The notes beneath the pieces are model-generated. The model searched no databases. It saw nothing but the letters and a program-made list of their open reading frames with translations, and was not told the DNA's origin. Below are positions 8,073-64,000 of a stretch of 64,000 bases of DNA, piece after piece; the stretch's first letter is position 1; each line of letters begins with the position of its first letter. Source of the DNA: Candidatus Uhrbacteria bacterium CG10_big_fil_rev_8_21_14_0_10_50_16 (lineage in GTDB: Bacteria; Patescibacteriota; Patescibacteriia; UBA9934; UBA11717); contig PCYM01000002.1 of NCBI GenBank assembly GCA_002774875.1, forward strand, positions 14,781-78,780, written 5' to 3'. The position numbers and the translations under genes are program-made.

Positions 8073-8255
8073 TGCCTACAATATAGCCTAAACTGTTACG
8101 AAAGTCACAGCATGGCATAAAAATCTACCAAAGCACTGACCCCGTTGTCAGCGAGCTTTGGTAGGTCGTATGTCGAAAGGCATGCGTTGGGAGTAATCCC
8201 ACGAGCTGGCAGCGGGTTTTGTGCTGTCCGCTCGAATAAATCCTACCAAAGCGCT

Positions 8256-11686: not shown

Positions 11687-11687
11687 T

Positions 11688-11750
11688 ACGCATCCGCGTC
11701 CATGTAACCTTCCGTTACTGGCCTCGCAGATGCGTCAATTTTTTAAAAAA
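11688..11750. terminator. Bidirectional terminator between convergent kinase and GGDEF genes
   Basis: acgcatc...gatgcgt stem followed by AATTTTTTAAAAAAAG. Confidence 0.45.
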
Positions 11751-12853: not shown

Positions 12854-12955
12854 ACTTTGTTGTGAGTTCTAAGTTCTGTTGATTCTATCAGCTAAAAAAC
12901 GTGACCGCGGGACTCAAGGTGAGAATCCCGCGGCCTTCCACGTTGTTGTTGGCCC

Positions 12956-13165
12956 TCAGCGCATGCAGTCCGCCCGCGCTTGCACGTCCCTCGTCACTCC
13001 AACAGCCGCACGCCAAGCATGCGGATCCGCCCCGAGAAGCCCGTCGATCTCATCGCCGTTCGAGACTCTGGGACCTCGTCCCATCGTCACACCAGCGCGA
13101 TTCGGCGACGCCTCGCTATTCTGACCGTCTCCCTGCTGTCCCTCGCCCTGTCCCTGCGACTGCAT
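12956..13165 (-). CDS. Small high-GC hypothetical protein (69 aa, Gln/Gly-rich N-terminus) in a promoter-to-terminator cassette
   Basis: Minus-strand TTGACA-N17-TAGTAT promoter at ~13215-13245, GGAG SD, ORF, then terminator hairpin ggccgcggga...tcccgcggtc + T6 at 12893-12930. Confidence 0.35.
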   Translation of the reverse strand: MQSQGQGEGQQGDGQNSEASPNRAGVTMGRGPRVSNGDEIDGLLGADPHAWRAAVGVTRDVQARADCMR

Positions 13166-13279
13166 GACTCATCTCCGTGCTCTCATTTCGAGCTCGCAGA
13201 TACTATTCTCATTTTCTCCTTCTGTCAATCATCCACAGAGAAGTTAGAATCCCCGCCATAATTCCTATATACTGTACCT

Positions 13280-13898: not shown

Positions 13899-15828
13899 GA
13901 CACAACGCCTCGCTGCTATCAGTGTTCTTGGTAGTCTGTTGATTGTTTCGGTTATTGTTATTGCCGGCGTGAGTTATGCCTACGCGTATAACGATCGTTT
14001 TTTTCCAGGAAGTATTGTTGCAACCGTACCGCTCGGTGGTCTCTCCTATGAGTCAGGGCTCACAGCCGTCAATACACGCGTCGACGCGCTCATTCAGGAA
14101 GGAGCATCCATCACCATCAACGGAGAAACGCGCACCATTCCTTTGCAGATTCTTTCTCCTTCCGACCCAGATCTTACGCAGGATCTCGTAACCTTAGATG
14201 TCGCCCTATCTGTTCAAGACGCCTTCAACAAGGGACGCACACGGAATTTATTTGTGCGTGCCTGGGACATGGCGTTTTTGGGGCTCGTTCGTCCCTCTAT
14301 GCCAATCCATGTGGAGACAAATCGCGAGGCCATTGAATCAAATCTGTTAAAAACGTTTGAGGATTATTACAACCCCGCACAGGAACCTACCTTTACAATT
14401 ACCCATGTCGATGACGTGTGGGATGTGCAGGTTGTAGAGGGTCATTCTGGTCGCGCTTTCAATGTGGACGACGCGATTCATGCGTTTACTTCCATGATGA
14501 CGCAGCTCAATAATTCAGAGGTACGCATTGCTCTCGTCGATGAGGACCCCCAGATTACTACCGAACAAGCGAGTGCGCGTGTGGATCAGGTTATGGCCGT
14601 TTTGGAGGCCGCGCCATTTGATTTTATCTACGAACCAAGTCGATTCGAGTCGTTTTCTTATAGCCTCGAGGCTGTCGACCTTGCGGATACACTCCAACTT
14701 GAACGCACAGCAGATGATCGCATAGCGCTCTCGGTTCCTGACTCGCTACCACTGTTTGAAACCATGACGCAGGACATCAACATCGATGCGCGCAACGCAC
14801 GATTCGTGATGGAAAATGATCGTGTGCAGGAGTTTACGCCAAGCATCGAAGGACGCGCCGTAAATACGGATGCCGTTCGACTTGCACTTATAGACCGACT
14901 AAGTACATTTACGCCAATTAGTTCTGTCGTTCCTTCCAACGAACCAATCGCTATTTCTGTAGAACGCACAGAAGCCGACATTACCACCAATGAAGTGAAC
15001 GATCTCGGCATTAGTGAGATTATAGGCGTGGGTGTTTCCGATTTTCACAACAGTCCCGCCAATCGTATTGCCAATATTAAGCACGGCATGAGTAAATTAA
15101 ATGGAATGCTCATTGCACCTGGTGAGGAGACTTCGCTCCTGGAGCACTTGCGACCATTCACGATTGCAGACGGTTACTTGCCTGAGCTCGTCATTAAAGG
15201 TGATGAGATTATTCCAGAGGTTGCCGGAGGGTTGTGTCAGATTGGGTCTACCGCTTTCCGCGCTGTCATGAATTCCGGGCTTACCATTACCTCGCGTCGC
15301 AACCATTCGCTTGTCGTCAGCTATTACAACGACCTCACCAACGGCAACCCAGGAACAGACGCGACGCTCTACGACCCCGCTCCTGACTTTAAATTCATTA
15401 ACGACACAGGTCATTACATCCTCCTTAATACCGAAATGGACATGGCCACAAGCAAACTCTACTTTACATTCTGGGGAACCAACGACGGACGTAAGGGTTA
15501 CTACTCGCCTCCTGTTGTTCTCAACTGGAGTTCGGCAGGACCCGCTGTCACCACCTATACCACAAGCTTGGCACCTGGCGTTAAACGTTGTCAGTCGGCA
15601 CATCCCGGCGCCAACACCACGTTCAACTATTTTGTGGAGCGACCAGATGGAACCGTGGAGAAAACCGTGTATGAGAGTCATTACCGTGCCCTACCCGCAT
15701 CATGTCTTGTAGGTGTGGCGGCAGATAGGCTTGATCCAGACGGTAATCTGATTCCAGAGTCTGTCGAGCCTGCACCTGAGACTCCGATTATCGACGCTCC
15801 GGTAGAAGAACCGATCGCCGTAGAATAA
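13873..15828 (+). CDS. VanW-family protein with N-terminal transmembrane anchor
   Basis: VanW core ...EVAGGLCQIGSTAFRAVMNSGLTITSRRNHS...GTDATLY; start moved to MKINLKENK before the TM helix. Confidence 0.7.
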   Translation: MKINLKENKTQRLAAISVLGSLLIVSVIVIAGVSYAYAYNDRFFPGSIVATVPLGGLSYESGLTAVNTRVDALIQEGASITINGETRTIPLQILSPSDPDLTQDLVTLDVALSVQDAFNKGRTRNLFVRAWDMAFLGLVRPSMPIHVETNREAIESNLLKTFEDYYNPAQEPTFTITHVDDVWDVQVVEGHSGRAFNVDDAIHAFTSMMTQLNNSEVRIALVDEDPQITTEQASARVDQVMAVLEAAPFDFIYEPSRFESFSYSLEAVDLADTLQLERTADDRIALSVPDSLPLFETMTQDINIDARNARFVMENDRVQEFTPSIEGRAVNTDAVRLALIDRLSTFTPISSVVPSNEPIAISVERTEADITTNEVNDLGISEIIGVGVSDFHNSPANRIANIKHGMSKLNGMLIAPGEETSLLEHLRPFTIADGYLPELVIKGDEIIPEVAGGLCQIGSTAFRAVMNSGLTITSRRNHSLVVSYYNDLTNGNPGTDATLYDPAPDFKFINDTGHYILLNTEMDMATSKLYFTFWGTNDGRKGYYSPPVVLNWSSAGPAVTTYTTSLAPGVKRCQSAHPGANTTFNYFVERPDGTVEKTVYESHYRALPASCLVGVAADRLDPDGNLIPESVEPAPETPIIDAPVEEPIAVE

Positions 15829-24184: not shown

Positions 24185-25666
<1,482 letters not shown>

Positions 25667-28388: not shown

Positions 28389-28464
28389 TCATGAACACCA
28401 CCGAAAGGTGGTGTTTTTGTTGTATTTACTGGCATTTTTTTTAAAAAAATAGGGCGCAATACCT

Positions 28465-28493
28465 TGACAAAACACCAAAATCGTGTTATAACG
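28465..28493 (+). promoter_or_regulatory. Sigma70-like promoter TTGACA-N17-TATAAC in AT-rich DNA driving a high-GC ORF
   Basis: Read directly. Confidence 0.5.
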
Positions 28494-28529
28494 GCAGCAG
28501 TTTCCAAACCCCCGGATCTTGGAGGATCC

Positions 28530-28910
28530 ATGCAGAACGTGAACGTGACTGTTGCTGGCGAAATCACCACCCTCCCCTGGAAGGAGGCCCTCCACCTCCT
28601 CCTGGAGGTGACAGAGTCGAAGCTCGACTTCGGCGACGGAGTCGAGCTGTCCCGCATCGGACCCCTCTGGGGGATCCGATGGACCGGACAGCCGTCCGCC
28701 CACCCGGGCACGGTGGACACCGCGGACATCCGCGGTGTGACGGTTCAAATGCGCCGTCACGCGAGAGCCCTCCCCCAGGCGTTGGAGGGGCTCCTGCGGG
28801 GGTCCCACCGCCGGGTGAGCCTCATGTGGGGCAGCACCCGGCGGTATGCCGGGATGGCACTCGAGCTCGTCGTCGAGGACGACGAGCTCTACGCCACGAT
28901 CTCCGTCTGA
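28530..28910 (+). CDS. High-GC hypothetical protein (126 aa) in a self-contained cassette
   Basis: GGAGGA SD then ATG at 28530 (the track ORF starts earlier in AT-rich leader); GC3-saturated; followed by 9-bp perfect hairpin atgccccgc...gcggggcat. Confidence 0.5.
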   Translation: MQNVNVTVAGEITTLPWKEALHLLLEVTESKLDFGDGVELSRIGPLWGIRWTGQPSAHPGTVDTADIRGVTVQMRRHARALPQALEGLLRGSHRRVSLMWGSTRRYAGMALELVVEDDELYATISV

Positions 28911-28989
28911 CAACCCCTGCTATGCCCCGCTTCCCAATCCTGGGAGGCGGGGCATACTGTTTGACAAAAAAACGTGCAGTCTGTAGCGT

Positions 28990-29300
28990 ATAGGTAGTCC
29001 TTTTACAACAACAAAATCAATGACTCGAGAAGTAGTACTCTTATTACTCCCTGCAAAGCGAATCCGGGATGGTGGAAGCCGGATCATAGAATAAGAAGAA
29101 ATTGGACTCGATGAGATGACGCGTGCTTTTGTGCGTGTCCGGCATCCCCCGTAACCTTGGGATAATGTGTATCTACGGAGCACATGAAAGAGCCTTCTTT
29201 TTTTAGAAGGAATTGAGGTGGTACCGCGGTGGTGGAGAACCCCCGTCCTCAGACAACGTCTTGTTGTCTTTGGGCGGGGGTTTTTTGCCCCACGCAAGGA
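28990..29300 (+). promoter_or_regulatory. T-box riboswitch leader with intrinsic terminator
   Basis: Canonical T-box sequence AATTGAGGTGGTACCGCGGTG at ~29205-29225 (17/19 to AAUUAGGGUGGUACCGCGG); ~300-nt leader; terminator ccccc gtcc...gggcggggg + T6 at ~29242-29290 just before the SD of the downstream operon. Confidence 0.65.
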
Positions 29301-39857: not shown

Positions 39858-40619
39858 ATGTTAAACAAATGGATCAACACGTTTATTCAACTTGGGTTGA
39901 GTGAAGTGGAATCAAAAATCTACTTTGCGGGGTTGGAGTTGGGGCCCACGAGCGCGCAAGAATTAGCACGCAAGGCGAGTGTCTCACGCACGGCCACGTA
40001 CGATGCGATTAATGCGCTCAAAGGGAAGGGATTGTTATCGACGTTTCAAAAGGGAGCAAAAACGGTGTTCACAATCGAGCAGCCTGAGGACGCGCTGCGT
40101 TACTTCCGCAAACAATCGCGACAAATGCGAGATAAGATTGAACTCATGGAAGAGGCCGTGCCGGAAATGAAAAGCCTCTCACCTGGGGAGAAGCCGTTTA
40201 TTCGATTTTACGAGGGACCCGAGGCATTGCGCAACTTATTTGCGGACGTACAGGCCGTCAATCCTCCTTCCATCTACGAGTTTGTAAATATTCAGGATGT
40301 GTATCATTCCGTGCACGACGGGACACCAGAGGTTAAAAAAATATTTGCCGAAGCTCACAATGTATCAGATCCATCACGGCAAGATATACGTCTCCTACAT
40401 ACGGGAAATGTACGAGAAAATTATCAACATCGTAAAGGCGTAGCGTTTCGACAACTGAACAATTCATTTGGTGAGTTTCACGGCGACATCTGGATTTATG
40501 GCGACCGAGTTGTGTTCACCTCATTTAAGGGATCCATTATGGCAATTATCATTCAAAGTGAAATGTTTTCTCAAACTGCCCGTGTCATGTTTGAAGCCGC
40601 CTGGTCTATAAGCAAATAA
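39858..40619 (+). CDS. TrmB-family transcriptional regulator (wHTH + C-terminal domain)
   Basis: N-terminal winged-helix EVESKIYFAGLELGPTSAQELARKASVSRTATYDAINALKGKGLL; paralogue of 45951..46757. Confidence 0.6.
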   Translation: MLNKWINTFIQLGLSEVESKIYFAGLELGPTSAQELARKASVSRTATYDAINALKGKGLLSTFQKGAKTVFTIEQPEDALRYFRKQSRQMRDKIELMEEAVPEMKSLSPGEKPFIRFYEGPEALRNLFADVQAVNPPSIYEFVNIQDVYHSVHDGTPEVKKIFAEAHNVSDPSRQDIRLLHTGNVRENYQHRKGVAFRQLNNSFGEFHGDIWIYGDRVVFTSFKGSIMAIIIQSEMFSQTARVMFEAAWSISK

Positions 40620-41079
40620 CAAACCGCGACCTGCCAGGTGGGCGGATCGCGGTCACAAGATCTGGCGGATCGCGGGGCGCGGACGTCGGAGAACCGACGC
40701 CGCACCCCGCTCTCCGCGCTTCTCAGCCGTTCATGGTGCCCTCCTGTGGCCATGGCTGGTGAAGCTATTCTTCCAACAAAGTTAAGGTCTCTGTGAAGAC
40801 CTGTCCTTGTAGATGCGACGCCGAGGGGGCGTCGTGGTTGGAGTCGCGTGGTACGCGACTTCCGGCCGGGTCTTTCACCCGGCGGAGGGCTGTGGGGGGG
40901 GCTAGCCGCCGAACATGGCGTACCCCTTTCCAGGTTTGATGAACGCATGAGCGCGTTCAATCAAAACCATCTATACCACAATTTTGCGGCTTTGTCAAGC
41001 GTAAGAGGCGTGTTTGTTCGCCTGCGACGTACTAAATAATCTTAAATTTACTGTGAGTTGTCCGCCAAAAGCGTACAAA

Positions 41080-41155: not shown

Positions 41156-42304
41156 GCTTTGTTCACTGATAGAGCACAACGCCTCAGTGATCCATGCATC
41201 TTACAAACAAACAGTGAAACAGGGCTTGTAACAACTACGTTGCAAGAACAAAGGACGATCGATATGGATCGTTCTCCTGGAATGTGCGTATGGCTGTAGG
41301 AAATTTCATGTAACGGCACTACAACGTACGGCAATCTGGATTAAAAAGGCTGGATCCATGGTCTACAACACCGTTTGAGACACATGTGTCCCCGCCACGC
41401 GGCCCCGCCGCGGATCTCTCGCTAGCACCACATAGACGCCATGCTATAGCTGGTAGCGGGAGATCCGCGGCAGAGGACGCAACCTGTCCAATCCGCACAA
41501 GAACTCTGTTGCCGGTGGGACGGCAAAACAGGGTGGGTGCTTGGCACACCCAGACCATCTGGTCAAAGATAACTCCTGGTAACAGGAGGAAACTCATGGC
41601 GGTAACACCATGGGGATGCGAAAGCATTCATAGCGCCACGCCTATCATGACGTATCCACGTTGGGTCGGGAGACCCCTCCAGGATCGGTACTGGAGTTGA
41701 TAGGTGCTTGCGGGTTGGAACCCTGCAAGAGTGAGTGCGGACAGTGGATTCTCCAATCCACGTTTGCACAGCAATGGTTTGGGCTACGCCCTCAACTGAT
41801 CGCAACCATTTTGTTACCGGCATCGCGCCCGAGTGGCGCGACCAATCAACCACCGGGTTGGTTTGCTGGGGCAATGGCGATCAGGTTGTATGCAAGGAAG
41901 GGCCTAACCGGTGAATCGTTCGTGTCAGTCATCTGCACGGCGATGATCCGGATAAAAAGGCGGATGGTTTGGGCGCCCCCCATTCCGTCCGCTCAACCAG
42001 GAGTCCCAGGCCGGCCAGCCAGGATTCTGAAGTTGAGAACTTGCATACTCCTAAGGCTGACACCCATCAGCCGACCGAATTCCATCGGGTTTTTCCGCTC
42101 AGACGGGCGGAAGACACACGGAAGGGTCAAAGACTGGTTGGCGGTCGCAACCGTCTCGCACAGCCTGAGAAGGCAACCAGCCGCGGGAGTAAGCACTTGC
42201 GTTACTTATTCCCACCTTATCTTCGCGCCCGAGCTTGCAATTCTGCTTGCTCGGACGCTCCACAAACTGCTTGAGTAACTCGAGCTGTTCGTGGAGGAGG
42301 AGCG

Positions 42305-42460
42305 ATGGCCATCACCCCCAGCTACGGAGTGGTGCGTCACGGCGCGGTCTGGTTTACCACCAGCCCGCAGCAGCTCAAGCGTGAGGCCCGTGAAAAGGCC
42401 GATCGCGAGCTGCAGGCGAAGCGACCTTGTGTCGTAATCCGCCGCCGCGCGCACCGGTAG
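42305..42460 (+). CDS. Small high-GC hypothetical protein (51 aa)
   Basis: GGAGGAGG SD immediately upstream of ATG; GC3-rich; below the track length cut-off. Confidence 0.35.
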   Translation: MAITPSYGVVRHGAVWFTTSPQQLKREAREKADRELQAKRPCVVIRRRAHR

Positions 42461-42681
42461 TCCTCATACGCTCGTGGGTCACACGAGCGTAAAAGGGTGC
42501 CGCAAACACCCTGCCCTAGCCAGGCAAAACCCCCGGGCTGCAGGTCCCATCTTGATTGAAAATTCCTGCACAACGTGGACCTGGGCACTGCTCGGGTCTT
42601 CCACAAAGGCGCGATCCTGTATGGCATTTTTGTGGAGGATACAACTCACTTACTGTTCTCGGAGGAGAACGAGGAGGTTCC

Positions 42682-42972
42682 ATGCGTCGATACACATTGT
42701 TCAGTAGCTGGCGTCGATCTGAGCTCGAGATCCCCTCCTCCGGGAGAAGGATCAAGAAGCTGGATAGGACGTTCGAGGTCGGCACCCCGCGGTACCTGAA
42801 GTGGCTCCGGCGCATGTTCCCCGATCAGGTTTACCTGGTCGTGGCGCAGGGAACCATGCCTCAAATGCTCGACCGCGTTCGCGCGCGGTTTGGACAGGAG
42901 GAGGTTCCCGGCGTGGTGTCTGCCACCGTTCAGCTTCAGCGGGACATCCGAGAAAACCCAAGTCTCTACTGA
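42682..42972 (+). CDS. Small high-GC hypothetical protein (96 aa, basic)
   Basis: GAGGAGG SD + ATG 42682 inside track ORF 42556..42972; preceded by a repeat-leader copy. Confidence 0.45.
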   Translation: MRRYTLFSSWRRSELEIPSSGRRIKKLDRTFEVGTPRYLKWLRRMFPDQVYLVVAQGTMPQMLDRVRARFGQEEVPGVVSATVQLQRDIRENPSLY

Positions 42973-42990
42973 AAGGAGGTGCTTCCGTGG

Positions 42991-43055
42991 CCTGAGGAGA
43001 ATCGCTTCTTGGGCCCTGCATAGAGTCTTTGCAAAACGAAGGTTCTATGGAGGAA
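42991..43055 (+). repeat. Repeated ~65-70-nt leader module (copy R1) with conserved 11-bp stem-loop ending in the SD
   Basis: GCCTGAGGAGAATCGCTTCTTGGGCCCTGCATAGAGTCTTTGCAAAACGAAGGTTCTATGGAGG is ~80% identical to the copy at 43711-43790; compensatory base changes keep the CAUAGAGUCYU/ARGRUUNUAUG stem. Confidence 0.55.
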
Positions 43056-43293
43056 AGGAAGTGTCAAATACCCCAGGTGGTATTGACGGCACTTCTGGCG
43101 CCTCACGACCATGTGCTCTCACCAGCACAAATTGGTCACAAAAGAGACGAACAGCAATGCGTCGCGGCTGCCAGTAGGAGGTATACGTACGAGGCCTGAG
43201 AAGATTCACTTCTCGGGCACTCTACAGAATTCTAGGCAGAAAAGGATTCTGAGAGTTAATCAATGTACGCAACAAGAGATTGGGAGGTGTGCG

Positions 43294-43569
43294 ATGAACA
43301 AGCTCAATGTGGTTGAGATAGGTCTTCGTAATGGCAAGGGTCTGAGCTTCACCTGCGGCAAGCTCTATGTCCGCATTACGGTAGACGGCCTCACGCTGCG
43401 CGTTGAGACCAACCTGCCGGTGCGGGCCAAGGAGCTGGCCGAGTCCGAGACGACCCCCGTTCGCCGGTCCGTGTTTGACCGCGCCGATGAGCTGCGCCGA
43501 GGAGGACGGCACAGCGACGTGGACGTGGCGGCAACAGGAGGGCGGCGGGTGATCCGACGCAGAACGTAA
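43294..43569 (+). CDS. Small high-GC hypothetical protein (92 aa)
   Basis: GGGAGG SD + ATG 43294 inside track ORF 43111..43569; preceded by a partial leader-module copy at 43194-43238. Confidence 0.45.
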   Translation: MNKLNVVEIGLRNGKGLSFTCGKLYVRITVDGLTLRVETNLPVRAKELAESETTPVRRSVFDRADELRRGGRHSDVDVAATGGRRVIRRRT

Positions 43570-43710
43570 ACCCCAGCCCGCGATCGGAACACGCGGCAAA
43601 GGCTGTTCCACCCCTCGCCCTCGCGAGCAGACCCCTTGCGTTTGAGCCACGCAATCGGGTCCCGTCCAGAACGGGGTAAGCCATCGCTCCGGGCGGTCAC
43701 GCGCCCCCTT

Positions 43711-43790
43711 GCCTGAGGTCAACTGATTCTCGGGCACTGCATAGAGTCCTTGCTGCACGAGGATTGTATGGAGTCTACAACTTTTGGAGG
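43711..43790 (+). repeat. Repeated leader module (copy R2) abutting the ATG of the 189-aa gene
   Basis: GCCTGAGGTCAACTGATTCTCGGGCACTGCATAGAGTCCTTGCTGCACGAGGATTGTATGGAGTCTACAACTTTTGGAGGTCACC then ATG. Confidence 0.55.
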
Positions 43791-43795
43791 TCACC

Positions 43796-44362
43796 ATGCG
43801 CCTGTTCGGACTTTCTGACTGTTACGATGCGATGGATCTGTACGTCTGCATCAACGGCAAGCACGTGCTCCTGTCCCGGTCGGAGGGGTGGGTGTCTGCC
43901 CGTGTGAAGCCGTGTGACAAGAGCTGTGTTCCCACGGAGATTGATCTGGAGGTGTGGCTGCAGAAGGCACCGCGGAAGGTCCGCAAGGATCCTCGGCTGC
44001 TCGCGTTCGTGGAGCAAGGAGTGCCCGCGTACACGGTGCACCGTTCCTTCGCCAAGCGCTCCGGCGGCAGCGAGACGGTCTGGATCGGCAACCTGGCGAT
44101 CACGTGGAGCTTTTGCGACGCGTCGCGGTTGAGCCAGCGGGACCGGTGGCGAGACCGCTTTGAGATCTGCCCCATCGGGGAGAATGATCTGCTGTGGTGG
44201 ATCCGCGACGTCCTCCCGTCCTCAAGACGGCTCGAAGACGTTGCCGAGGAGATCCGTCGCAATGACGATCTGCTCCTGAGCGAGCTCCGGCAGCGCGGCA
44301 CTCCGGACGCAAACACCCTGGACGCGGATGCCTTCCGGCAGTTTCTCTTGAACCTGCTGTAA
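43796..44362 (+). CDS. High-GC hypothetical protein (189 aa)
   Basis: Start at MRLFGLSD with GGAGG SD supplied by the leader module; terminator gccaaaatccc...gggatttggc+T7 at ~44400-44460. Confidence 0.5.
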   Translation: MRLFGLSDCYDAMDLYVCINGKHVLLSRSEGWVSARVKPCDKSCVPTEIDLEVWLQKAPRKVRKDPRLLAFVEQGVPAYTVHRSFAKRSGGSETVWIGNLAITWSFCDASRLSQRDRWRDRFEICPIGENDLLWWIRDVLPSSRRLEDVAEEIRRNDDLLLSELRQRGTPDANTLDADAFRQFLLNLL

Positions 44363-44592
44363 GAAGACGATCGTGCTCCCCAGCTCCCCGGTTCTCGGGT
44401 TGAGCCAAAATCCCTACGTCAATCCCATCTGTTCTTCTGGTGGGATTTGGCTTTTTTTGCTACATTTCTATTTAATTTTCATCGCCCAACAAACCTAGGG
44501 CGGCGGCATTTATTTATAAACAATACGACCTGAGACTTGATTATCTTATTTTTCTTTTAGGCTAAAATTAGCCATTTTTCCATGGTCACCTC

Positions 44593-44621
44593 TTGACAAA
44601 AGGTGTTTTTTATGGTATAAG
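44593..44621 (+). promoter_or_regulatory. Sigma70-like promoter TTGACA-N17-TATAAG in AT-rich spacer driving the next high-GC ORF
   Basis: Read directly. Confidence 0.5.
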
Positions 44622-44761
44622 ATTGTTACGCCAAAGGTGGAATAGGTTCACCTAACGCGCAGACGATCCGGAACGCTGATTCATACAGCATTCTGAAAGA
44701 CGATAACGGATCGGTCTCGTGCAAGCGAGATACCTATGAACGGGGCTTACCACCCCACGGA

Positions 44762-45460
44762 GTGATGATGGAAAAGGAAACCAACGTCATGGTGCGCCTC
44801 CCGGCGCGAGAATGGGAAATCCTCATCAAGGAGGTCCTCGCCGCAGAGGCAGATCTCCCCTCGTGGGAGTGGTGCAGAACAAGCGGAGCCCCCCGCGAGG
44901 AGGAGGGGCGGCGGCGCGATGCCGCCAGGACCGCTCTGAGGGTGGCCATGGGTCGCTCACCGGCCAACGAGAGGATGGAGGACCGTCTGGCCAACAAGGC
45001 CGGGTGCGTCCTCCTCGTGGACGGCCGGTTTGAGATCGGGGGCTCCGTTGGGGAGCGCAAGCTCCTGATCAACGGCCGAATCCGGGCCACCCTCCGCCTG
45101 GGGGGCCGTCTGGACGGCCGCGTGGATGTCGTCACCCGGGAGGCGGCCGAGGCCGCCTACCAGGAGCGACGACAGGCCTCCCGCCACGCCGAGGCCGCCT
45201 ACAAGGCGGCCCGGCAGGAGCTCATCCACGAGCTCCTGCAGGCGGACCTGGCCGAGCCCGCCGACTTCGGTCGGTGGACATACGCCTACGGGCAGTTCGG
45301 TGGGTATTTCTACCGAACGGGGGTGAGCGGCCCCCGCGTCGCCGCCAACTCCGCCTTCGTGGCGGCGTTCGGCCGCGACTGGAGGAAGACCGCCAACGAT
45401 CGGCGTTGCGAGAAGATCGAGCTCGAGCTCGATCGTCGGCTCTACGGCGCCCGCTACTAG
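44762..45460 (+). CDS. High-GC hypothetical protein (232 aa, Arg/Ala/Glu-rich)
   Basis: GGAG SD then ATGATG; GC3-saturated; followed by a terminator-like hairpin + T-run at ~45517-45575. Confidence 0.5.
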   Translation: MMMEKETNVMVRLPAREWEILIKEVLAAEADLPSWEWCRTSGAPREEEGRRRDAARTALRVAMGRSPANERMEDRLANKAGCVLLVDGRFEIGGSVGERKLLINGRIRATLRLGGRLDGRVDVVTREAAEAAYQERRQASRHAEAAYKAARQELIHELLQADLAEPADFGRWTYAYGQFGGYFYRTGVSGPRVAANSAFVAAFGRDWRKTANDRRCEKIELELDRRLYGARY

Positions 45461-45950
45461 CCCCCCAAAAAAATCCTGAGCAAGCAGGAACCCTTCGGAG
45501 CACATGTCTTGCTACATGTCTCCACCTACGCCCCGAACCACCCCCGTGCAAAATCACGGTCTGGAGGTCCGGGGTTTTGCGTTTTAAAATAGCTGTCTCT
45601 CTTAAACACCCGCATTTTTTTAACATGTTTTCCTGCGTGAGGAGATGCGACGGGTGAAGAAGATGAGATACATCTGACCGCCCAACCAAGAACCGACCCC
45701 CATCGATACGTCGATGAAGGGCGACGTCACTCGGTGGGCGGTTCTTGTTTTTGTTCGTCTCGCAGTAAACATCATTGATACGCCAGGCGAATATTTGAGA
45801 GGATAGTGATATAGGTTGAGTATTTCTACCAGGTGATCACTAATGACTTATGCCGTAGAATTATCCTCTACATCTCGATAAGCACGCATTGCCCTTTTTT
45901 CAGTACTTTGCTAAGTTACATACATGAGTAAGTAGATTTTATTTCCCCAA

Positions 45951-53048: not shown

Positions 53049-53900
53049 TTACTGATTCCAAACGCGTTCGCACGACATGTGTCGTTTACCGATAATCTCG
53101 TTGCCGGACGTATCCGTCGCCGGTGAGTCTACACACGTCTCTACCATATCCGTTGCCTGTGTAGCACTATCCAGGATGTAGTAGCTCCACCAAACATTTC
53201 TCATGTCTCCACGACTTGTTCCCACGACGGTTTGATGAGGAAGGAAGTCACCTAAAAAGTACCCATCCTCCATAACACCACTGAGCGGTTGATAACGAAT
53301 AAATATATTTCCGTTCCACATCATCGGATGGCCATATCCTTCTCCGTTTTTGACAAAGGCATAAACCTCCGTACCAAACTTACAAAGTTGAATCTGATTA
53401 CCGTTCAGGTTGTTAGCCGTTTTTACGATTTTTTGTGTGAAGACCGCATCATTGATTCTAGGCACATAGTTGTTTTGTGCAACATCCGCTATTGTAAACG
53501 GTAGACCGTAAGATGAGACAGAAGATGTTTCACACGTTCGCGCCTGTTCGAACATGCCAGCCACAAGCTTTTGCATCGCCGTTTTATATCCCTGACCCGT
53601 CTGTGCGTCAACATCATACGTAATATCAAGCCCTGTTGCCGACAACTCTCCCAATCCAGGGAGTGTACTGTCGGATTCCGTAGACCCTTCTTCCACGATA
53701 TCCGATGCGACCTCGTTTGTTGCATCTGATTCTTCCGATCGCGGATTCGAGGATGTGACAACGACATCTGAGGAATCCGATTGGTGAACACCAAACCAGA
53801 TGGCCGCACCCGTCGCACTAAGCGCAAGCACAATGAGAATAATCACCAAGTACCACGGTGCGCCATGCGATGCTGATGTTGGGGGTGTAAATGATTCCAT
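53049..53900 (-). CDS. Membrane-anchored hypothetical protein (N-terminal TM, extracytoplasmic domain)
   Basis: ORF track; WYLVIILIVLALSATGAAIWF TM helix; terminator hairpin at 53005-53045. Confidence 0.5.
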   Translation of the reverse strand: MESFTPPTSASHGAPWYLVIILIVLALSATGAAIWFGVHQSDSSDVVVTSSNPRSEESDATNEVASDIVEEGSTESDSTLPGLGELSATGLDITYDVDAQTGQGYKTAMQKLVAGMFEQARTCETSSVSSYGLPFTIADVAQNNYVPRINDAVFTQKIVKTANNLNGNQIQLCKFGTEVYAFVKNGEGYGHPMMWNGNIFIRYQPLSGVMEDGYFLGDFLPHQTVVGTSRGDMRNVWWSYYILDSATQATDMVETCVDSPATDTSGNEIIGKRHMSCERVWNQ

Positions 53901-61392: not shown

Positions 61393-61470
61393 ACCGGGCT
61401 TTAAGTTATGAGTTACCGGTGGCACCCTACGCTCTACGCATGTCCATCCACCAAAAGGTGGACAGAACAA

Positions 61471-61504
61471 CAAAAAACCTGTTTTCAACAAGGGAAAACA
61501 GCTG
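61471..61504 (-). promoter_or_regulatory. Leader attenuator/terminator upstream of rpoB (ctgttttc-ccttgttg-gaaaacag + GTTTTTTG)
   Basis: Perfect 8-bp stem followed by U-run on the minus strand, ~80 nt before the rpoB start; minus-strand TTGACA-N17-TAGTAT promoter at ~61676-61705. Confidence 0.45.
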
Positions 61505-61767
61505 TTACTTGCCTAATATTGGTGCAGCGACGCTGAATATCCGTTTCGCCACGAAAGCGGATAGAGCGTTTAGCATGGGGATGAAACTCACTGAATGGGG
61601 GTTAGGATTTAGTGAGTTTTGACCTGAGTCCGCTCGGATCAGCAGACCAAGACAGATCCGTCAAGAGCGTTGCAATACTATAGCGAAAAGACACATTTGT
61701 CAAACATGAGCAAGTATTCTGTCAAGAACAATCAATATTTAGCTAATACTAGGCGAATAACTATACC

Positions 61768-61797
61768 TTGACAAAATCTGCTTTTTCTGGTACATTC
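61768..61797 (+). promoter_or_regulatory. Sigma70-like promoter TTGACA-N17-TACATT heading a ~390-nt structured leader into the last high-GC gene
   Basis: Read directly; leader contains several perfect short hairpins. Confidence 0.45.
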
Positions 61798-62185
61798 GGC
61801 CGTTCATTAAAACCTGTATAACATTAGATTGAAGGAGGAAGAGGAGCGTTGGAAACCGGCTAGATTCGTTTAGCATGGCGACAGTGTTCTTGAGTCATCT
61901 ATCGGTGAAACTGGGTCTCACTCACTCTCTCCGAACAGATGCCTCGCGAATGTAGATTACCTTGGTAAACCTACATTCATCCCCTTCAATCTGCTGTGAT
62001 ACAGCAGGCGTTTCCCGCTTCACCCCAGAAACCTGTCGTTTTTGGCGATTTTCTGTGTTGAGGTGGGAGAACGAGCGTTCTTTCCATATTTAGCCTGCAA
62101 CCCCGTGGTGGGGAAGTTGGCTTTTTTGATACGTCGCCGCGTGTACGGCACGTTTTGCGGCAATGCCGTGGAAGAGGAGAGGGAG

Positions 62186-64000
62186 ATGAGCAAGACCATG
62201 CCGATCCGCCTGCGCCTGGCGGACAACGAGGAGGTCAGCGAGGAGATGCCCACCGGGCTCTCGTTCGGGGACATCCGGACCCTCGGGTTGCTGGAGGTCG
62301 CCGAGATCGGAACGCGCCTCGCGCTCCCCTCGGGGATCGAGGTAGTCCGGACAGAGTCCGGCCTGGGGTTCATCACCAAGACCGCGCCCGTGAGCACGGC
62401 CGCCCCGGCTCCCAAGGCCGAGGTGGTCCAGACCGCGCGCCCGGCGGCCAAGGAGCCGAGGGTGACCGCCCAGGTGGCGGACATCTTCGGCGGATCCGTC
62501 GCCGTCCCCTCGGGGCGGCTGGCGGTGGACGCCTCCGTCCCCGTCCCGGCACCCAAGGCCGAGGTGGTCCAGACCGCGACCGCGCCCCCGGCGGCCAAGA
62601 TCGAGATCAAGACGGGCTCCGCCCAGGTGGCGGACATCGTCGAGGACGAGGCCCGCTTGGAACGGGAGAAGAAGGCCGCCGCACACGCGGCCAACCTCGC
62701 GGCCCGGGCCGCGATCATCCCCGGACTGGTCGTCGCCCTCGTGGCGCTGGCCAAGGAGTTCCTCAAGGAGGGCGGCCACATGGCCGGCATCTTCCTGGAG
62801 GAGGCCTACGTCAAGTCCGGCCCCTTTGCCACCCGCGTGGTGGCCGAGGGGATCGAGACCATCGAGAACTCGGTCGTCATGGACGGCCGCGCCATCCTGA
62901 ACGCCCTCCGGGCGCTCAACTCCAACCACCCCCTCCGGGGGATGGTGGACGCGATGGTCCTGCACGGCCCCCATGCCGTGCACTACGATCGGATCTTGAT
63001 CAACCGGAACCCCAAGGGGAAGGTCTGGATCCTCCCCTTGTGGGCGCCAGTGGCCTCGGCCGTCACCGACCGGCTCAGGAACGAGCTGGTGGGCGTCGCC
63101 CGCTACACGAAGCTCAAGAATGAGCTTCGCCGCCGCCTCTCGGGCGGCGCCGTGGTCAAGGGCGGGCGGAAGATCGCCCGCCACCCCAACGGGGGCGTGG
63201 ACTGGGACAGGCTCCACGACAAGTTCGAGGGAAAGGAATCCCTCGAGGGCCGCAAGGTGGCTTGGGGCCACATTGCCCTCATCGGCGACTGGGCCTTCTG
63301 CCTGGACGCCACCGACTACGACAAGACGACGGTGGTCGCCGTCGCCGCGGAGCTCACGGACGAGGGCCGCAAGGAAGAACAGGCCAAGGTGCTCCAGGAC
63401 ATCAACTGGGCCAACCGGTCCGTGAACGGGGTCAAGTTGATCCCCTTCAACACCCGGCAGACCCCCGAGGGGGCCTACCGGGTGGACCGGATCCTGAAGC
63501 AGGACGGCACCTGCCCGATCAGCGGGCAGGAGATCCCCCAGCAGAAGGGGGGCGCCTTCCACTTCCTGGTCTACGCCCCCCGTGGTGGGAGTGATCCCGC
63601 CCAACTGGTGGAGGAAATGGGCTACGTCCCCCTCCGCCCCTGGGTGGGCTACGCCCTCCTGGAGGACCTCTCCATCCTCCCCACCGACTGGGAAGTGTGG
63701 CAGAGGTGGGAGATCGTGACGCGGTTCTCCGCCACGGTCTCGTTCGTGGCGGACAAGAGCATCAAGCTCGAGCCCGCCTCACCTCGCAAGAGCAAGGGGA
63801 GCGTCTCCCTGAGCTCCCGCAAGCTCAAGGAGGAGCGCTCCGACGCCGATGCCAGGAAGGCGCTCGGCGGGGGCAAGAAGAAGAAGGGCGGGGGGTCCAA
63901 GAAGACCACCCGCCGGCTCCGAGCACGGACTCCAATGTCGGTCACCGACCGCCTGATCGAGTCCTGGGAGCACAAGTCGCCCGAGGAGTTCGGGATCATG
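62186..64000 (+). CDS. Large high-GC hypothetical protein (at least 605 aa; 3' end beyond window) with tandem ~45-aa PAPKAEVVQTA...AQVADI repeats and Lys/Gly-rich segment
   Basis: Frame-2 ORF translated by hand with no stop from ATG 62186 (GGAGAGGGAG SD) to 64000; absent from the track (no stop in window); track ORFs 62155..63123(+), 62090..63604(-) are its shadows. Confidence 0.6.
   Translation, partial: MSKTMPIRLRLADNEEVSEEMPTGLSFGDIRTLGLLEVAEIGTRLALPSGIEVVRTESGLGFITKTAPVSTAAPAPKAEVVQTARPAAKEPRVTAQVADIFGGSVAVPSGRLAVDASVPVPAPKAEVVQTATAPPAAKIEIKTGSAQVADIVEDEARLEREKKAAAHAANLAARAAIIPGLVVALVALAKEFLKEGGHMAGIFLEEAYVKSGPFATRVVAEGIETIENSVVMDGRAILNALRALNSNHPLRGMVDAMVLHGPHAVHYDRILINRNPKGKVWILPLWAPVASAVTDRLRNELVGVARYTKLKNELRRRLSGGAVVKGGRKIARHPNGGVDWDRLHDKFEGKESLEGRKVAWGHIALIGDWAFCLDATDYDKTTVVAVAAELTDEGRKEEQAKVLQDINWANRSVNGVKLIPFNTRQTPEGAYRVDRILKQDGTCPISGQEIPQQKGGAFHFLVYAPRGGSDPAQLVEEMGYVPLRPWVGYALLEDLSILPTDWEVWQRWEIVTRFSATVSFVADKSIKLEPASPRKSKGSVSLSSRKLKEERSDADARKALGGGKKKKGGGSKKTTRRLRARTPMSVTDRLIESWEHKSPEEFGIM

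What the first reader, a model, noticed from the sequence alone, without database searches (positions are those of the whole stretch)
62040..64000. At least 605-aa high-GC protein with tandem PAPKAEVVQTA repeats, missing from the ORF track because it runs off the window
Hand translation of frame 2 from ATG 62186 gives an uninterrupted ORF to position 64000.

The N-terminal third contains a ~140-bp tandem duplication; CCCAAGGCCGAGGTGGTCCAGACCGCG occurs at 62412 and 62552. The protein continues into Lys/Gly-rich low-complexity sequence.

The track's 322-aa and 504-aa ORFs here are shadows in other frames. A large repeat-bearing, compositionally foreign protein next to the rpoBC region is unexpected.
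Basis: seen in the sequence. Interest (0 to 1): 0.5.

Follow-up and report, generated by a model that had tools for sequence, protein, structure and literature searches.

The report
Foreign high-GC orphan gene, real
The open reading frame is a real 640-residue gene of unknown function with no relatives outside two sister Uhrbacteria lineages; its very GC-rich, foreign-looking DNA fills a variable slot between a new small RNA gene and ftsK, and its alleles split much more recently than the surrounding genome.

Summary
Frame 2 from ATG 62186 is open to base 64000. Identical contigs from other assemblies put the stop at window-equivalent 64108, giving 640 aa (NCBI hypothetical protein COV06_02055, Candidatus Uhrbacteria CG10).

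- **Coding frame.** GC at codon positions 1/2/3 is 0.66/0.47/0.94, against 0.59/0.39/0.49 for rpoB. The 504-aa and 322-aa ORFs are shadows; JGI and ENA pipelines nevertheless called the antisense shadow.
- **Orphan status.** An exhaustive HMMER search of 1.84 billion representatives found only the query's own cluster. An indexed search of 5.8 billion clusters added one 87%-identical allele from a sister Uhrbacteria lineage. Pfam, PHROGs, NCBIfam, PADLOC, PDB, phage and plasmid searches found nothing, and AlphaFold failed (pLDDT 32).
- **Context.** In five Uhrbacteria lineages rpoB is followed by a divergently transcribed, covariation-supported ~190-nt sRNA that Rfam lacks, then a variable slot, then ftsK. 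The slot holds this gene in two lineages, a 234-aa high-GC gene in one, and unrelated host-GC genes in two.
- **Divergence.** Between the two carriers, four-fold sites differ at 48-77% in nine flanking genes but 7.5% in this gene, in a mosaic pattern (2.5% centre, 12-21% ends).

Best reading: a functional, fast-evolving accessory gene from a high-GC source, recently exchanged between lineages. Its biochemical role is unknown, possibly nucleic-acid binding through its basic tails.

The parts
61768..61796 (+). Sigma-70-like promoter (TTGACA, 17 nt, TG-TACATT) of the sRNA. It is the only promoter-like site upstream of the ORF.
   Evidence: 10 of 12 matches, extended -10. Conserved in the sister lineage. 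Equivalent promoters precede the sRNA in L009, L013 and L014.
61815..62004 (+). Core of a conserved structured small RNA: a closing stem of about 21 bp and three hairpin arms. Rfam lacks it.
   Evidence: nhmmer E = 1e-61 to 2e-36 in five lineages, single copy in the window. 71 pairs, 93% paired, 18 pairs with compensatory changes, 0 of 500 shuffles reach this, slid controls 38-43% paired. No Rfam match. Fold z-score -4.5 for 61798-62200.
62005..62130 (+). 3' extension of the sRNA with two terminator-like hairpins (62025-62045 followed by a T-rich tail; about 62095-62120 followed by TTTTTT). It serves as the 5' untranslated region of the ORF if transcription reads through.
   Evidence: 86% identical to the sister allele. 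Read-through is inferred, not shown.
62172..62183 (+). Shine-Dalgarno-like purine run GAGGAGAGGGAG directly upstream of ATG 62186.
   Evidence: Read. Conserved in the sister allele.
62186..64000 (+). Coding sequence of the orphan protein. It runs on to a TGA at window-equivalent 64106-64108, giving 640 aa.
62400..62642 (+). Diverged in-frame tandem duplication of about 47-51 codons (...VPSG...PAPKAEVVQTA.PAAK...AQVADI...). The copies differ by in-frame indels, and the sister allele carries a further 13-codon insertion here.
62696..62752 (+). Hydrophobic segment LAARAAIIPGLVVALVALA (residues 171-189). It could be a single membrane anchor or a buried helix.
   Evidence: Kyte-Doolittle mean of 2.26 over 19 residues. 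There is no signal peptide. Not conserved in the 234-aa protein of L009. Inconclusive.
63746..64000 (+). Start of the strongly basic Lys/Gly/Arg/Ser-rich C-terminal tails (net charge +5, +8 and +6 per 40 residues). They continue past the window end.
   Evidence: whole-protein pI 9.6.
62090..63604 (-). Codon-aligned antisense shadow ORF (504 aa as listed; 490 aa as called by JGI and ENA). Not a gene.
   Evidence: Codon-position GC 0.93/0.46/0.67. Composition G 17.7%, L 14.5%, H 6.3%, with K, N, I, Y, M, W, S and T each at 1.4% or less. Its extent differs between alleles, 504 against 663 aa.
62155..63123 (+). Out-of-frame shadow ORF (322 aa).
   Evidence: Codon-position GC 0.95/0.68/0.46.

Best explanation
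**What is shown.**
- The region 62186..64108 is a genuine single-gene cassette encoding a 640-aa protein. The cassette comprises a 5' UTR, the CDS, 3' hairpins and an intrinsic terminator.
- Its codon composition (GC3 0.94) is foreign to the ~50% GC Candidatus Uhrbacteria genome that carries it.
- It occupies a hypervariable slot between a conserved stand-alone sRNA gene and ftsK.
- It exists only in two sister lineages.
- Its two alleles are far younger than the surrounding chromosome, in a mosaic pattern.

**What is inferred.**
- The gene came from a high-GC gene pool that has not been sampled.
- It has since been moved or homogenised between the two Uhrbacteria lineages by recombination, with the conserved sRNA and the ftsK upstream region as the likely homology arms.
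- Reading-frame conservation, and purifying selection in the older-diverged ends, show that it is kept as a functional protein. The youngest tract shows relaxed or diversifying change.
- It is probably transcribed by read-through from the sRNA promoter.

**Function (weakest step).** The protein has a small N-terminal beta module, a duplicated Pro/Ala/Lys linker carrying a VPSGR motif, one hydrophobic helix, an alpha/beta core of about 330 residues, and two Lys/Gly-rich basic tails (pI 9.6). The most likely role is a nucleic-acid-binding, possibly membrane-tethered, accessory protein. The available tools do not allow any enzymatic assignment.
For: **It is coding.**
- Codon-position GC is 0.66/0.47/0.94, and the amino-acid composition is normal.
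- All indels between the alleles are in frame.
- A ribosome-binding site and a conserved ATG precede it.
- Terminator hairpins follow the stop in both alleles.
- The GC step coincides with the cassette at both ends.

**It is not a chimera.** The sequence is identical in the window and in the independently assembled JGI and ENA contigs L003, L004 and L005. A Logan contig encodes the identical 640-aa protein. The sister allele is identical but for one base across three assemblies.

**It is an orphan.** Only the query's own cluster was found among 1.84e9 representatives, and only one other cluster among 5.8e9. The same holds for its antisense translation. Pfam, PHROGs, NCBIfam, PADLOC, PDB, phage, plasmid, viral-contig and metagenome-contig searches were all empty.

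**The slot is variable.** Five lineages share rpoB, the sRNA, a slot and ftsK, with four different slot contents.

**The alleles are young.**
- Four-fold sites differ at 7.5% in the gene against 48-77% in nine flanking genes.
- C<->G differences among G/C four-fold sites are 3.5% against 18-54%.
- dS is 0.11 against 1.1-1.9.
- The pattern is mosaic: 5/203 in the centre against 21/130 at the ends, Fisher p = 9e-6.
- The UTRs are at intermediate divergence of 14-20%.

**Selection.** Synonymous to non-synonymous codon changes are 17:12 in the older 3' end and 13:39 in the young centre.
Against: - **No expression data.** Nothing shows that the gene is transcribed or translated.
- **No donor identified.** A typical high-GC bacterial donor should have left homologues among 15 billion proteins.
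- **High omega.** Omega is about 0.57 overall and about 1 in the central 400 codons, which is also what a decaying or non-functional acquisition would show.
- **GC3 has not decayed.** It stays at 0.94-0.97 even where the alleles differ by 12-21% at four-fold sites, and C<->G makes up 12 of 26 four-fold changes. That divergence therefore happened under a GC-favouring regime. Simple residence in a 50% GC genome does not explain this.
- **Protein divergence is ordinary.** Amino-acid identity is 90%, within the range of the flanking proteins (63-97%). An old gene with constrained synonymous sites is not strictly excluded.
- **Function is weakly based.** It rests only on composition and charge. Both AlphaFold runs failed.
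Confidence: 0.62

Rival explanations
1. The gene is an old, vertically inherited resident of the common ancestor of the two lineages. Its synonymous sites are held nearly constant by a second constraint. Candidates are a functional antisense gene (dual coding), selection for GC3, or mRNA structure.
For: - Protein identity of 90% is in the same range as the flanking proteins.
- A long antisense ORF is open in both alleles, 504 and 663 aa.
- Omega is similar in the sense and codon-aligned antisense frames, 0.57 and 0.60.
- Four-fold divergence is highest (12/58) in codons 521-640, which lie beyond the stop that ends the antisense ORF in the window lineage.
- C<->G changes are over-represented, which suggests that GC is being maintained.
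Against: - The antisense product has a shadow composition: G+L is 32%, and K, N, I, Y, M, W, S and T are each at 1.4% or less. Its codon-position GC is 0.93/0.46/0.67.
- Its N-terminal extent is not conserved between the alleles.
- GC3 selection alone cannot explain why GC-neutral C<->G changes are 5-10 times rarer than in the flanks.
- The 5' end is fully covered by the antisense ORF yet shows five times the four-fold divergence of the centre.
- The non-coding UTRs show the same intermediate divergence as the gene ends.
Confidence: 0.12
2. The cassette is a recent acquisition that is not, or no longer, functional. It would be a foreign gene drifting neutrally that has simply not yet picked up a stop codon, because GC-rich sequence rarely does.
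For: - Omega is about 1 in the central 400 codons (13 synonymous against 39 non-synonymous codon changes).
- It has no homologues and no domains.
- AlphaFold gives no confident fold.
- Its codon usage is poorly matched to the host.
Against: - Five indels between the alleles are all multiples of three.
- About 130 substitutions produced no stop in the sense frame, while other frames carry 2-26 stops.
- The older-diverged 3' end shows purifying selection, with synonymous to non-synonymous changes at 17:12.
- The start codon, ribosome-binding site and terminator function are kept, the terminator through compensatory changes.
Confidence: 0.1
3. The cassette is a minimal selfish or mobile element. 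It would insert site-specifically, or home, into the 3' flank of the sRNA gene, with the orphan protein serving as its own mobility factor.
For: - It sits at the same site in diverged genomes and has much lower divergence than the flanks.
- Its composition is foreign.
- The slot next to an RNA gene has different occupants in five lineages.
- The protein is basic and could bind DNA.
- The 234-aa high-GC occupant of the same slot in L009 shares a 20-24 residue motif and a basic tail.
Against: - No nuclease, recombinase or transposase domain was found.
- No terminal inverted repeats, and no direct repeats duplicating the sRNA 3' end, bracket the cassette.
- There is no second copy in the window or in any locus fetched.
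- The other occupants of the slot are ordinary host-GC genes on the opposite strand.
Confidence: 0.1
4. The real gene is the antisense ORF on the minus strand (490 aa in the window lineage), as the JGI and ENA pipelines annotate it.
For: JGI and ENA gene calls choose it. It is open in both alleles.
Against: - It has shadow codon-position GC and a shadow composition.
- It overlaps the sRNA 3' region.
- Its N-terminus is not conserved.
- The promoter, ribosome-binding site and terminators all fit the plus strand.
- The plus-strand ORF is longer and exactly fills the GC island.
Confidence: 0.03
5. The high-GC segment is an assembly chimera or a contaminant joined to an Uhrbacteria contig.
For: There is an abrupt 20-point GC step.
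Against: - The junctions on both sides are identical in the independently assembled JGI and ENA contigs.
- The sister allele has the same junctions in three assemblies.
- Host genes flank the segment on both sides within single contigs of up to 413 kb.
Confidence: 0.01

Closest known systems
Compositionally atypical, horizontally acquired orphan genes (genomic islets; the amelioration framework of Lawrence and Ochman, from my own knowledge)
   Same: It is a single accessory gene whose GC and codon-position profile differ sharply from the host. It is restricted to close relatives, lacks homologues, evolves fast and lies in a variable chromosomal slot.
   Different: GC3 is extreme at 0.94 and shows no sign of decay, even in the parts of the gene where the alleles differ by 12-21% at four-fold sites. 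No donor lineage is detectable among 15 billion proteins.
Integration or replacement hot spots next to tRNA, tmRNA and small RNA genes (from my own knowledge)
   Same: The variable slot begins right after the 3' end of a conserved structured RNA gene. It holds different genes in different lineages.
   Different: There is no integrase, no att-like duplication of the RNA 3' end and no multi-gene island. The slot holds single genes, some with normal host composition.
Gene-specific sweeps, meaning recombination between diverged bacterial lineages (from my own knowledge)
   Same: One locus is nearly identical between lineages whose core genes are saturated at synonymous sites, with mosaic tracts of different ages.
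   Different: The exchanged gene is itself foreign in composition. Only two lineages are available, so neither the direction nor the number of events can be resolved.
Shadow ORFs opposite GC3-rich genes (a well-known gene-calling artefact, from my own knowledge)
   Same: The 504/663-aa antisense ORF and the 322-aa out-of-frame ORF arise because stop codons are rare in frames that read GC-rich third positions.
   Different: Here the artefact entered public protein sets: JGI and ENA pipelines called the antisense ORF (P0005, P0006, P0012). Sense-protein searches of those sets therefore cannot see this gene.
Lys/Ala/Pro-rich basic tails of nucleoid-associated proteins of high-GC bacteria, such as the C-terminal extension of mycobacterial HupB (recalled from memory; a lead, not a test)
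   Same: It has Pro/Ala/Lys repeats (PAPKAEVVQTA.PAAK) and Lys/Gly-rich C-terminal tails, with pI 9.6.
   Different: No HU/IHF or other DNA-binding domain is detected. The tails flank an unknown core of about 330 residues.

Membership tests
Any curated protein family (Pfam-A, NCBIfam, PHROGs, PADLOC) | Profile match at or near the family threshold | tested here: not met
   Zero families, even at E <= 1, in all four libraries.
Diversity-generating retroelement target gene | A reverse transcriptase nearby, and a template/variable repeat pair that differs at adenines | tested here: not met
   The neighbours are rpoB, the sRNA and ftsK. The two repeat copies are in-frame tandem units inside the gene, and their mismatches are C/T and T/A with indels, not adenine-specific.
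Free-standing homing endonuclease gene | A LAGLIDADG, GIY-YIG, HNH or PD-(D/E)xK nuclease domain | tested here: not met
   No Pfam or PHROG match.
Free-standing homing endonuclease gene | Same insertion site in diverged genomes, with element divergence far below flank divergence | tested here: met
   Four-fold divergence is 7.5% against 48-77%, at the same position between the sRNA and ftsK.
Insertion sequence or transposon | A transposase domain, terminal inverted repeats, target-site duplication and multiple copies | tested here: not met
   No transposase family. No inverted or direct repeats bracket the island. It is single-copy in the window and the loci.
Integron gene cassette | An attC recombination site at the cassette end, within an array next to intI | tested here: not met
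   There is no integrase gene in the surrounding 20 kb. The 3' hairpins are followed by a T-run and read as a terminator. No attC model search was available.
Prophage or plasmid-derived gene | Similarity to phage or plasmid proteins or records | tested here: not met
   tblastn against 50,697 phage and 72,556 plasmid records found no match. IMG/VR has no relative. PHROGs gave none.
Anti-phage defence system component | Match to a PADLOC model, or a multi-gene defence-island context | tested here: not met
   No PADLOC match. The neighbours are housekeeping genes.
Known Rfam RNA family (for the upstream sRNA) | Covariance-model match | tested here: not met
   There is nothing at gathering thresholds in the window. 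Nothing reached E <= 1 in 61400-64000 except a spurious eukaryotic lncRNA hit inside the ORF.
Cis-regulatory leader or riboswitch of the ORF (for the upstream RNA) | The RNA is always followed by a co-directional regulated gene | tested here: not met
   In L013 the RNA ends in its own terminator and the next gene is on the other strand. In L014 the next gene is a convergent tylF.
Integral membrane protein | A signal peptide or transmembrane helices | tested here: inconclusive
   There is one 19-residue segment with Kyte-Doolittle mean 2.26, containing an Arg. There is no signal peptide. No dedicated predictor was available.

The most novel reading that the evidence does not exclude
The slot beside the sRNA may be the docking site of an unrecognised gene pool of single-gene, high-GC cassettes that move among Uhrbacteria lineages. 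Their source could be an unsampled high-GC partner organism or element. The 640-aa and 234-aa proteins share the VPSGR motif and basic tails, and may act together with the adjacent sRNA, for instance as RNA-binding partners or as the cassette's own mobility factor. The window carries several other high-GC orphan genes, and about 14% of its bases lie in segments above 60% GC. That would fit a recurrent influx of this kind.
Probability: 0.12. Interest if true: 0.65.

Novelty: new member of a known kind. Interest (0 to 1): 0.4.

Why it matters
- **As a protein.** It founds a family with no detectable relatives among about 15 billion predicted proteins. It is kept in frame in a reduced (~1 Mb-class) CPR genome, so it probably does something lineage-specific.
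- **As an evolutionary case.** It is a clean example of a foreign-composition gene that was exchanged between lineages long after their core genomes diverged. Its GC3 has not decayed toward the host's. That points either to repeated import from a high-GC source, which could be a clue to an unknown partner of these episymbionts, or to an unexplained GC-maintaining force.
- **As a practical warning.** Metagenome pipelines called the antisense shadow, so protein-level searches of those resources miss genes of this type.
- **By-product.** The work turned up a covariation-supported sRNA that Rfam lacks, and a variable slot beside it.

Tried and rejected
**Searches that found nothing useful**
- Structure route: two AlphaFold2 runs, full length and core only, each with the only two sequences available, gave mean pLDDT of 32.2 and 31.8. 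No fold search was run, because matches to such models are meaningless.
- Homology route: the following were all empty apart from the query's own cluster and its sister allele.
  - Indexed search of the sense protein.
  - Exhaustive HMMER.
  - Indexed search of the antisense translation, done to catch copies that pipelines called on the wrong strand.
  - PDB sequences.
  - Phage and plasmid tblastn.
  - IMG/VR and JGI metagenome contig scans.
- The GTDB genome scan returned only the sister lineage.
- A 20-mer from the sRNA, scanned in metagenome contigs, gave one chance hit inside an enoyl-CoA hydratase gene.
- A covariance model of the sRNA could not be calibrated within the time limit, so nhmmer was used instead.
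- Literature searches found nothing on this gene or on high-GC orphan genes in CPR genomes.

**Ideas rejected**
- Paralogy with the other high-GC orphan gene in the window (4601-6259): no similarity.
- Full-length homology with the 234-aa L009 protein: BLASTP and hhalign support only a 20-24 residue motif. My by-eye alignment of the remainder is not supported.
- GC3 selection alone as the cause of low dS: rejected by the C<->G test.
- A leader or riboswitch reading of the upstream RNA: rejected because the RNA stands alone in L013 and L014.
- Sequestration of the ribosome-binding site, seen in the single-sequence MFE fold: the pairing is weak when inspected, so it is not claimed.
Full report
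**1.

- Translating 62186-64000 gives 605 codons with no stop.
- The ORF listing shows only the 322-aa (+) and 504-aa (-) ORFs there, because it omits ORFs that run off the source.
- GC rises from 0.44-0.50 before about 62000 to 0.65-0.74 after it. The window as a whole is 51% GC.
- The 27-mer CCCAAGGCCGAGGTGGTCCAGACCGCG occurs at 62411 and 62552.
- The duplication consists of three collinear blocks at 95-96% identity with spacings of 141, 147 and 153 nt. The best block has E = 2e-10. TRF does not score it, because there are only two copies and they differ by indels.

**2. Which frame is the gene**

- The sense frame has GC at codon positions 1/2/3 of 0.66/0.47/0.94. That is the signature of a coding region from a very GC-rich genome. 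rpoB and rpoC next door have 0.59/0.39/0.49 and 0.59/0.37/0.53.
- The 504-aa antisense ORF is the codon-aligned reverse frame (0.93/0.46/0.67). Its product is 17.7% Gly, 14.5% Leu and 6.3% His, and K, N, I, Y, M, W, S and T are each at 1.4% or less. The sense protein has an ordinary composition.
- The sense ORF has a purine-rich ribosome-binding site directly before ATG 62186. That ATG is conserved in the sister allele, whereas the ATG at 62198 used by NCBI is not.
- Both alleles end with GC-rich hairpins followed by T-runs.
- JGI and ENA pipelines nevertheless called the antisense ORF (490 or 663 aa), so their protein sets lack the real product.

**3. Identity, completeness and source**

- The indexed search found the gene as NCBI hypothetical protein COV06_02055 of Candidatus Uhrbacteria bacterium CG10_big_fil_rev_8_21_14_0_10 (P0001, 636 aa). 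It also found one 87%-identical protein from Uhrbacteria UBA11717 (P0002).
- Looking up the window's rpoB gave three further contigs (L003, L004 and L005) from two JGI and one ENA assembly. They are identical to the window across the sRNA and the ORF. A Logan contig encodes the identical 640-aa protein.
- L003 shows the stop at window-equivalent 64106-64108, a terminator, and then ftsK, an HTH_25 gene and recA in the same direction.
- The sister allele is present in three assemblies with one mismatch in 1965 nt. In the 64-kb contig L006 it also has ftsK downstream.
- An assembly artefact is therefore excluded.

**4. No relatives and no fold**

- phmmer against 1.84 billion cluster representatives returned only the query's own cluster.
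- Pfam, PHROGs, NCBIfam and PADLOC gave nothing at E <= 1.
- PDB sequences gave only noise. Phage and plasmid tblastn, IMG/VR and JGI contig scans were empty.
- Because pipelines may call the wrong strand, I also searched the antisense translation. It found only itself and the sister allele.
- AlphaFold2 with the two available sequences gave pLDDT 32, both for the full length and for the core. I ran no fold search.

**5. Genomic context across five lineages**

Cluster look-ups on neighbouring genes brought in three more Uhrbacteria lineages. All five share the order rpoC <- rpoB <- | sRNA -> | slot | ftsK ->.

| Lineage | Content of the slot |
|---|---|
| Window (L003) | 640-aa high-GC orphan gene, plus strand |
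| L006 / L001 / L007 | 654-aa allele of the same gene, plus strand |
| L009 | 234-aa ORF, 64-66% GC (GC3 0.79), plus strand |
| L014 | TylF-type methyltransferase, host GC, opposite strand |
| L013 | AAA_18-like P-loop gene, opposite strand |

- By rpoB, recA, ftsK and EF-P, the window lineage and L006 are sisters, and L009 and L014 are sisters (rpoB 96-97% amino-acid identity within pairs, 90-92% between pairs). Every pair differs at 41-70% of four-fold sites, close to saturation.
- The L009 protein shares only a 20-24 residue motif with the orphan protein: D.F.G.V.VPSGR..VD (BLASTP E = 1e-3; hhalign E = 1e-3, probability 20%). It also has a basic C-terminal tail. Common origin of more than that motif is not shown.

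**6. The upstream RNA**

- The 190-nt core at 61815-62004 is preceded by a TTGACA-17-TACATT promoter. It is single-copy in the window and present in all five lineages (nhmmer E = 1e-61 to 2e-36).
- Its consensus fold has 71 pairs, of which 93% form and 18 carry compensatory changes. None of 500 column shuffles reaches these values, and slid controls give 38-43% pairing with 1-5 covarying pairs.
- L014 carries a 156-nt insertion at the tip of the longest hairpin.
- L013 shows the RNA with its own promoter and terminator, followed by a gene on the other strand. It is therefore an independent sRNA gene and not a leader of the orphan gene.
- Rfam has no match.
- In the window the core is followed by two terminator-like hairpins, and no separate promoter precedes the ORF. 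I infer that the orphan gene is transcribed by read-through.

**7. The alleles are much younger than the chromosome around them**

| Measure, window lineage vs L006 | Nine flanking genes | Orphan gene |
|---|---|---|
| Four-fold sites that differ | 48-77% | 7.5% (25/332) |
| C<->G differences among G/C four-fold sites | 18-54% | 3.5% |
| dS | 1.1-1.9 | 0.11 |

The dS row is; the flanking dS values were computed for four of the flanking genes against L001. dN for the orphan gene is 0.06, giving omega 0.57.

- The C<->G comparison matters because those changes are neutral to GC content. Selection for GC3 alone therefore cannot explain the deficit.
- Nucleotide identity in the core of the ORF is 92-98%, against 78-89% in rpoB and rpoC.

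The deficit is mosaic.

| Codons | Four-fold sites that differ | Synonymous : non-synonymous codon changes |
|---|---|---|
| 1-122 | 9/72 | 11:16 |
| 123-520 | 5/203 | 13:39 |
| 521-640 | 12/58 | 17:12 |

- Centre against ends gives Fisher p = 9e-6. GC3 is 0.94-0.97 throughout.
- The 5' UTR is 86% identical and the first 95 nt of the 3' UTR about 80%. The terminator hairpin is only about 55% identical, with compensatory changes. Beyond it, apart from a few conserved blocks upstream of ftsK, the alignment is only about 60% identical and heavily gapped, and the sister allele has a 230-nt palindrome-bearing insertion.
- This pattern fits recombination tracts of different ages laid over a cassette that is younger than the split of the two lineages. 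A uniform synonymous constraint fits it poorly.
- Purifying selection is visible where divergence is older (17:12). The youngest tract is at about the neutral ratio (13:39).

**8. An unexplained feature**

- Of the 26 four-fold differences, 12 are C<->G. The flanking genes show 11-14%.
- Only 17 third positions are A/T in both alleles, against 18 and 13 that are private to one allele.
- The divergence between the alleles therefore accumulated under a regime that disfavours GC-to-AT change. Either it happened in a high-GC source before separate entries into the two lineages, or something maintains GC here. The present data cannot separate these.

**9. The protein**

The AlphaFold secondary structure is low-confidence.

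- Residues about 20-60 form a small beta module. This is the only part with pLDDT 50-63.
- Residues 60-150 hold two diverged units of 47-51 residues, carrying the VPSG motif and PAPKAEVVQTA.PAAK. They are indel-prone between the alleles.
- A long helix includes the hydrophobic stretch at residues 171-189.
- Residues 200-520 form a mixed alpha/beta core.
- Residues 521-640 form two Lys/Gly/Arg-rich tails around a short helical segment. The whole protein has pI 9.6.

No catalytic motif can be supported. A nucleic-acid-binding role is the most likely reading and is an inference from charge alone.

**10. Verdict**

- The gene is an orphan accessory gene of foreign composition, sitting in a variable slot and recently exchanged between sister lineages. 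This is a known kind of thing, with an unusually clean signature, an unexplained persistence of GC3 and an unknown function.
- The sRNA and the variable slot are the most reusable by-products.

Noticed in passing
window 61815-62004 (+), with promoter 61768-61796: A structured small RNA of about 190 nt that Rfam lacks. It is conserved in five Uhrbacteria lineages between rpoB and ftsK. It has 18 covarying base pairs, stands alone with its own terminator in L013, and carries a 156-nt hairpin-tip insertion in L014.
   Followed up: yes
window 61500-61700 (- strand), promoter-like site 61703-61675: The region upstream of rpoB is strongly conserved across lineages (for example GGGGATGAAACTCACTGAATGGGGGTTAGGATTTAGTGAGTTTTG). 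It looks like a conserved structured 5' leader of rpoB. There is no rplJ-rplL upstream of rpoB here.
   Followed up: no
window 4601-6259 (+): A second high-GC orphan gene (552 aa, 65% GC, GC3 0.78) with an N-terminal signal-like sequence. It has no Pfam or PADLOC match, only one other relative (73% identity, from a JGI contig), and no similarity to the gene studied here.
   Followed up: partly
window 42101-45601; also 10951-11701, 12901-13201, 28451-29001, 40601-40951: Further segments above 60% GC; together with the two orphan genes they make up about 14% of the window. ORFs 43784-44362 and 44762-45460 have GC3 of 0.81 and 0.86 and no Pfam family. L001 has another such gene (14452-14850, GC3 0.89). 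High-GC orphan genes seem to recur in these genomes.
   Followed up: partly
L003 7831-9303, L006 10001-11992 (equivalent to window 62090-63604, - strand): JGI and ENA gene callers annotated the antisense shadow ORF (490 and 663 aa) instead of the real gene. Public protein collections therefore hold the shadow (P0005, P0006, P0012), and for those contigs they lack the true product.
   Followed up: yes
L001 12150-12330 and L006 (rc), about 150-330 nt after the stop: The sister lineage carries an insertion of about 230 nt holding a perfect palindrome (AAATATTCAAACATGTGCCGATCGGCACATGTTTGAATATTT) and a partial second copy. It looks like a miniature inverted-repeat element. The UBA11717 contig (L001) departs from L006 exactly there, which suggests a rearrangement or a misjoin at the repeat.
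   Followed up: partly
L009 9635-9495 (- strand): Upstream of the sRNA, L009 has an extra unit that the window lacks: a TTGACA promoter, about 100 nt, and then a hairpin with a T-run. It may be another small RNA.
   Followed up: no
window 8085-8202 (+); 29011-29253 (+); 24185-25665 (+): Rfam matches to LOOT RNA (78 bits), a T-box leader (97 bits) and a 16S rRNA gene. No 23S rRNA match was listed anywhere in the window.
   Followed up: no
window 53049-53900 (-): A 283-aa gene just downstream of rpoC has no family match. It is the fastest-evolving syntenic gene between the sister lineages (63% amino-acid identity, omega 0.16).
   Followed up: no
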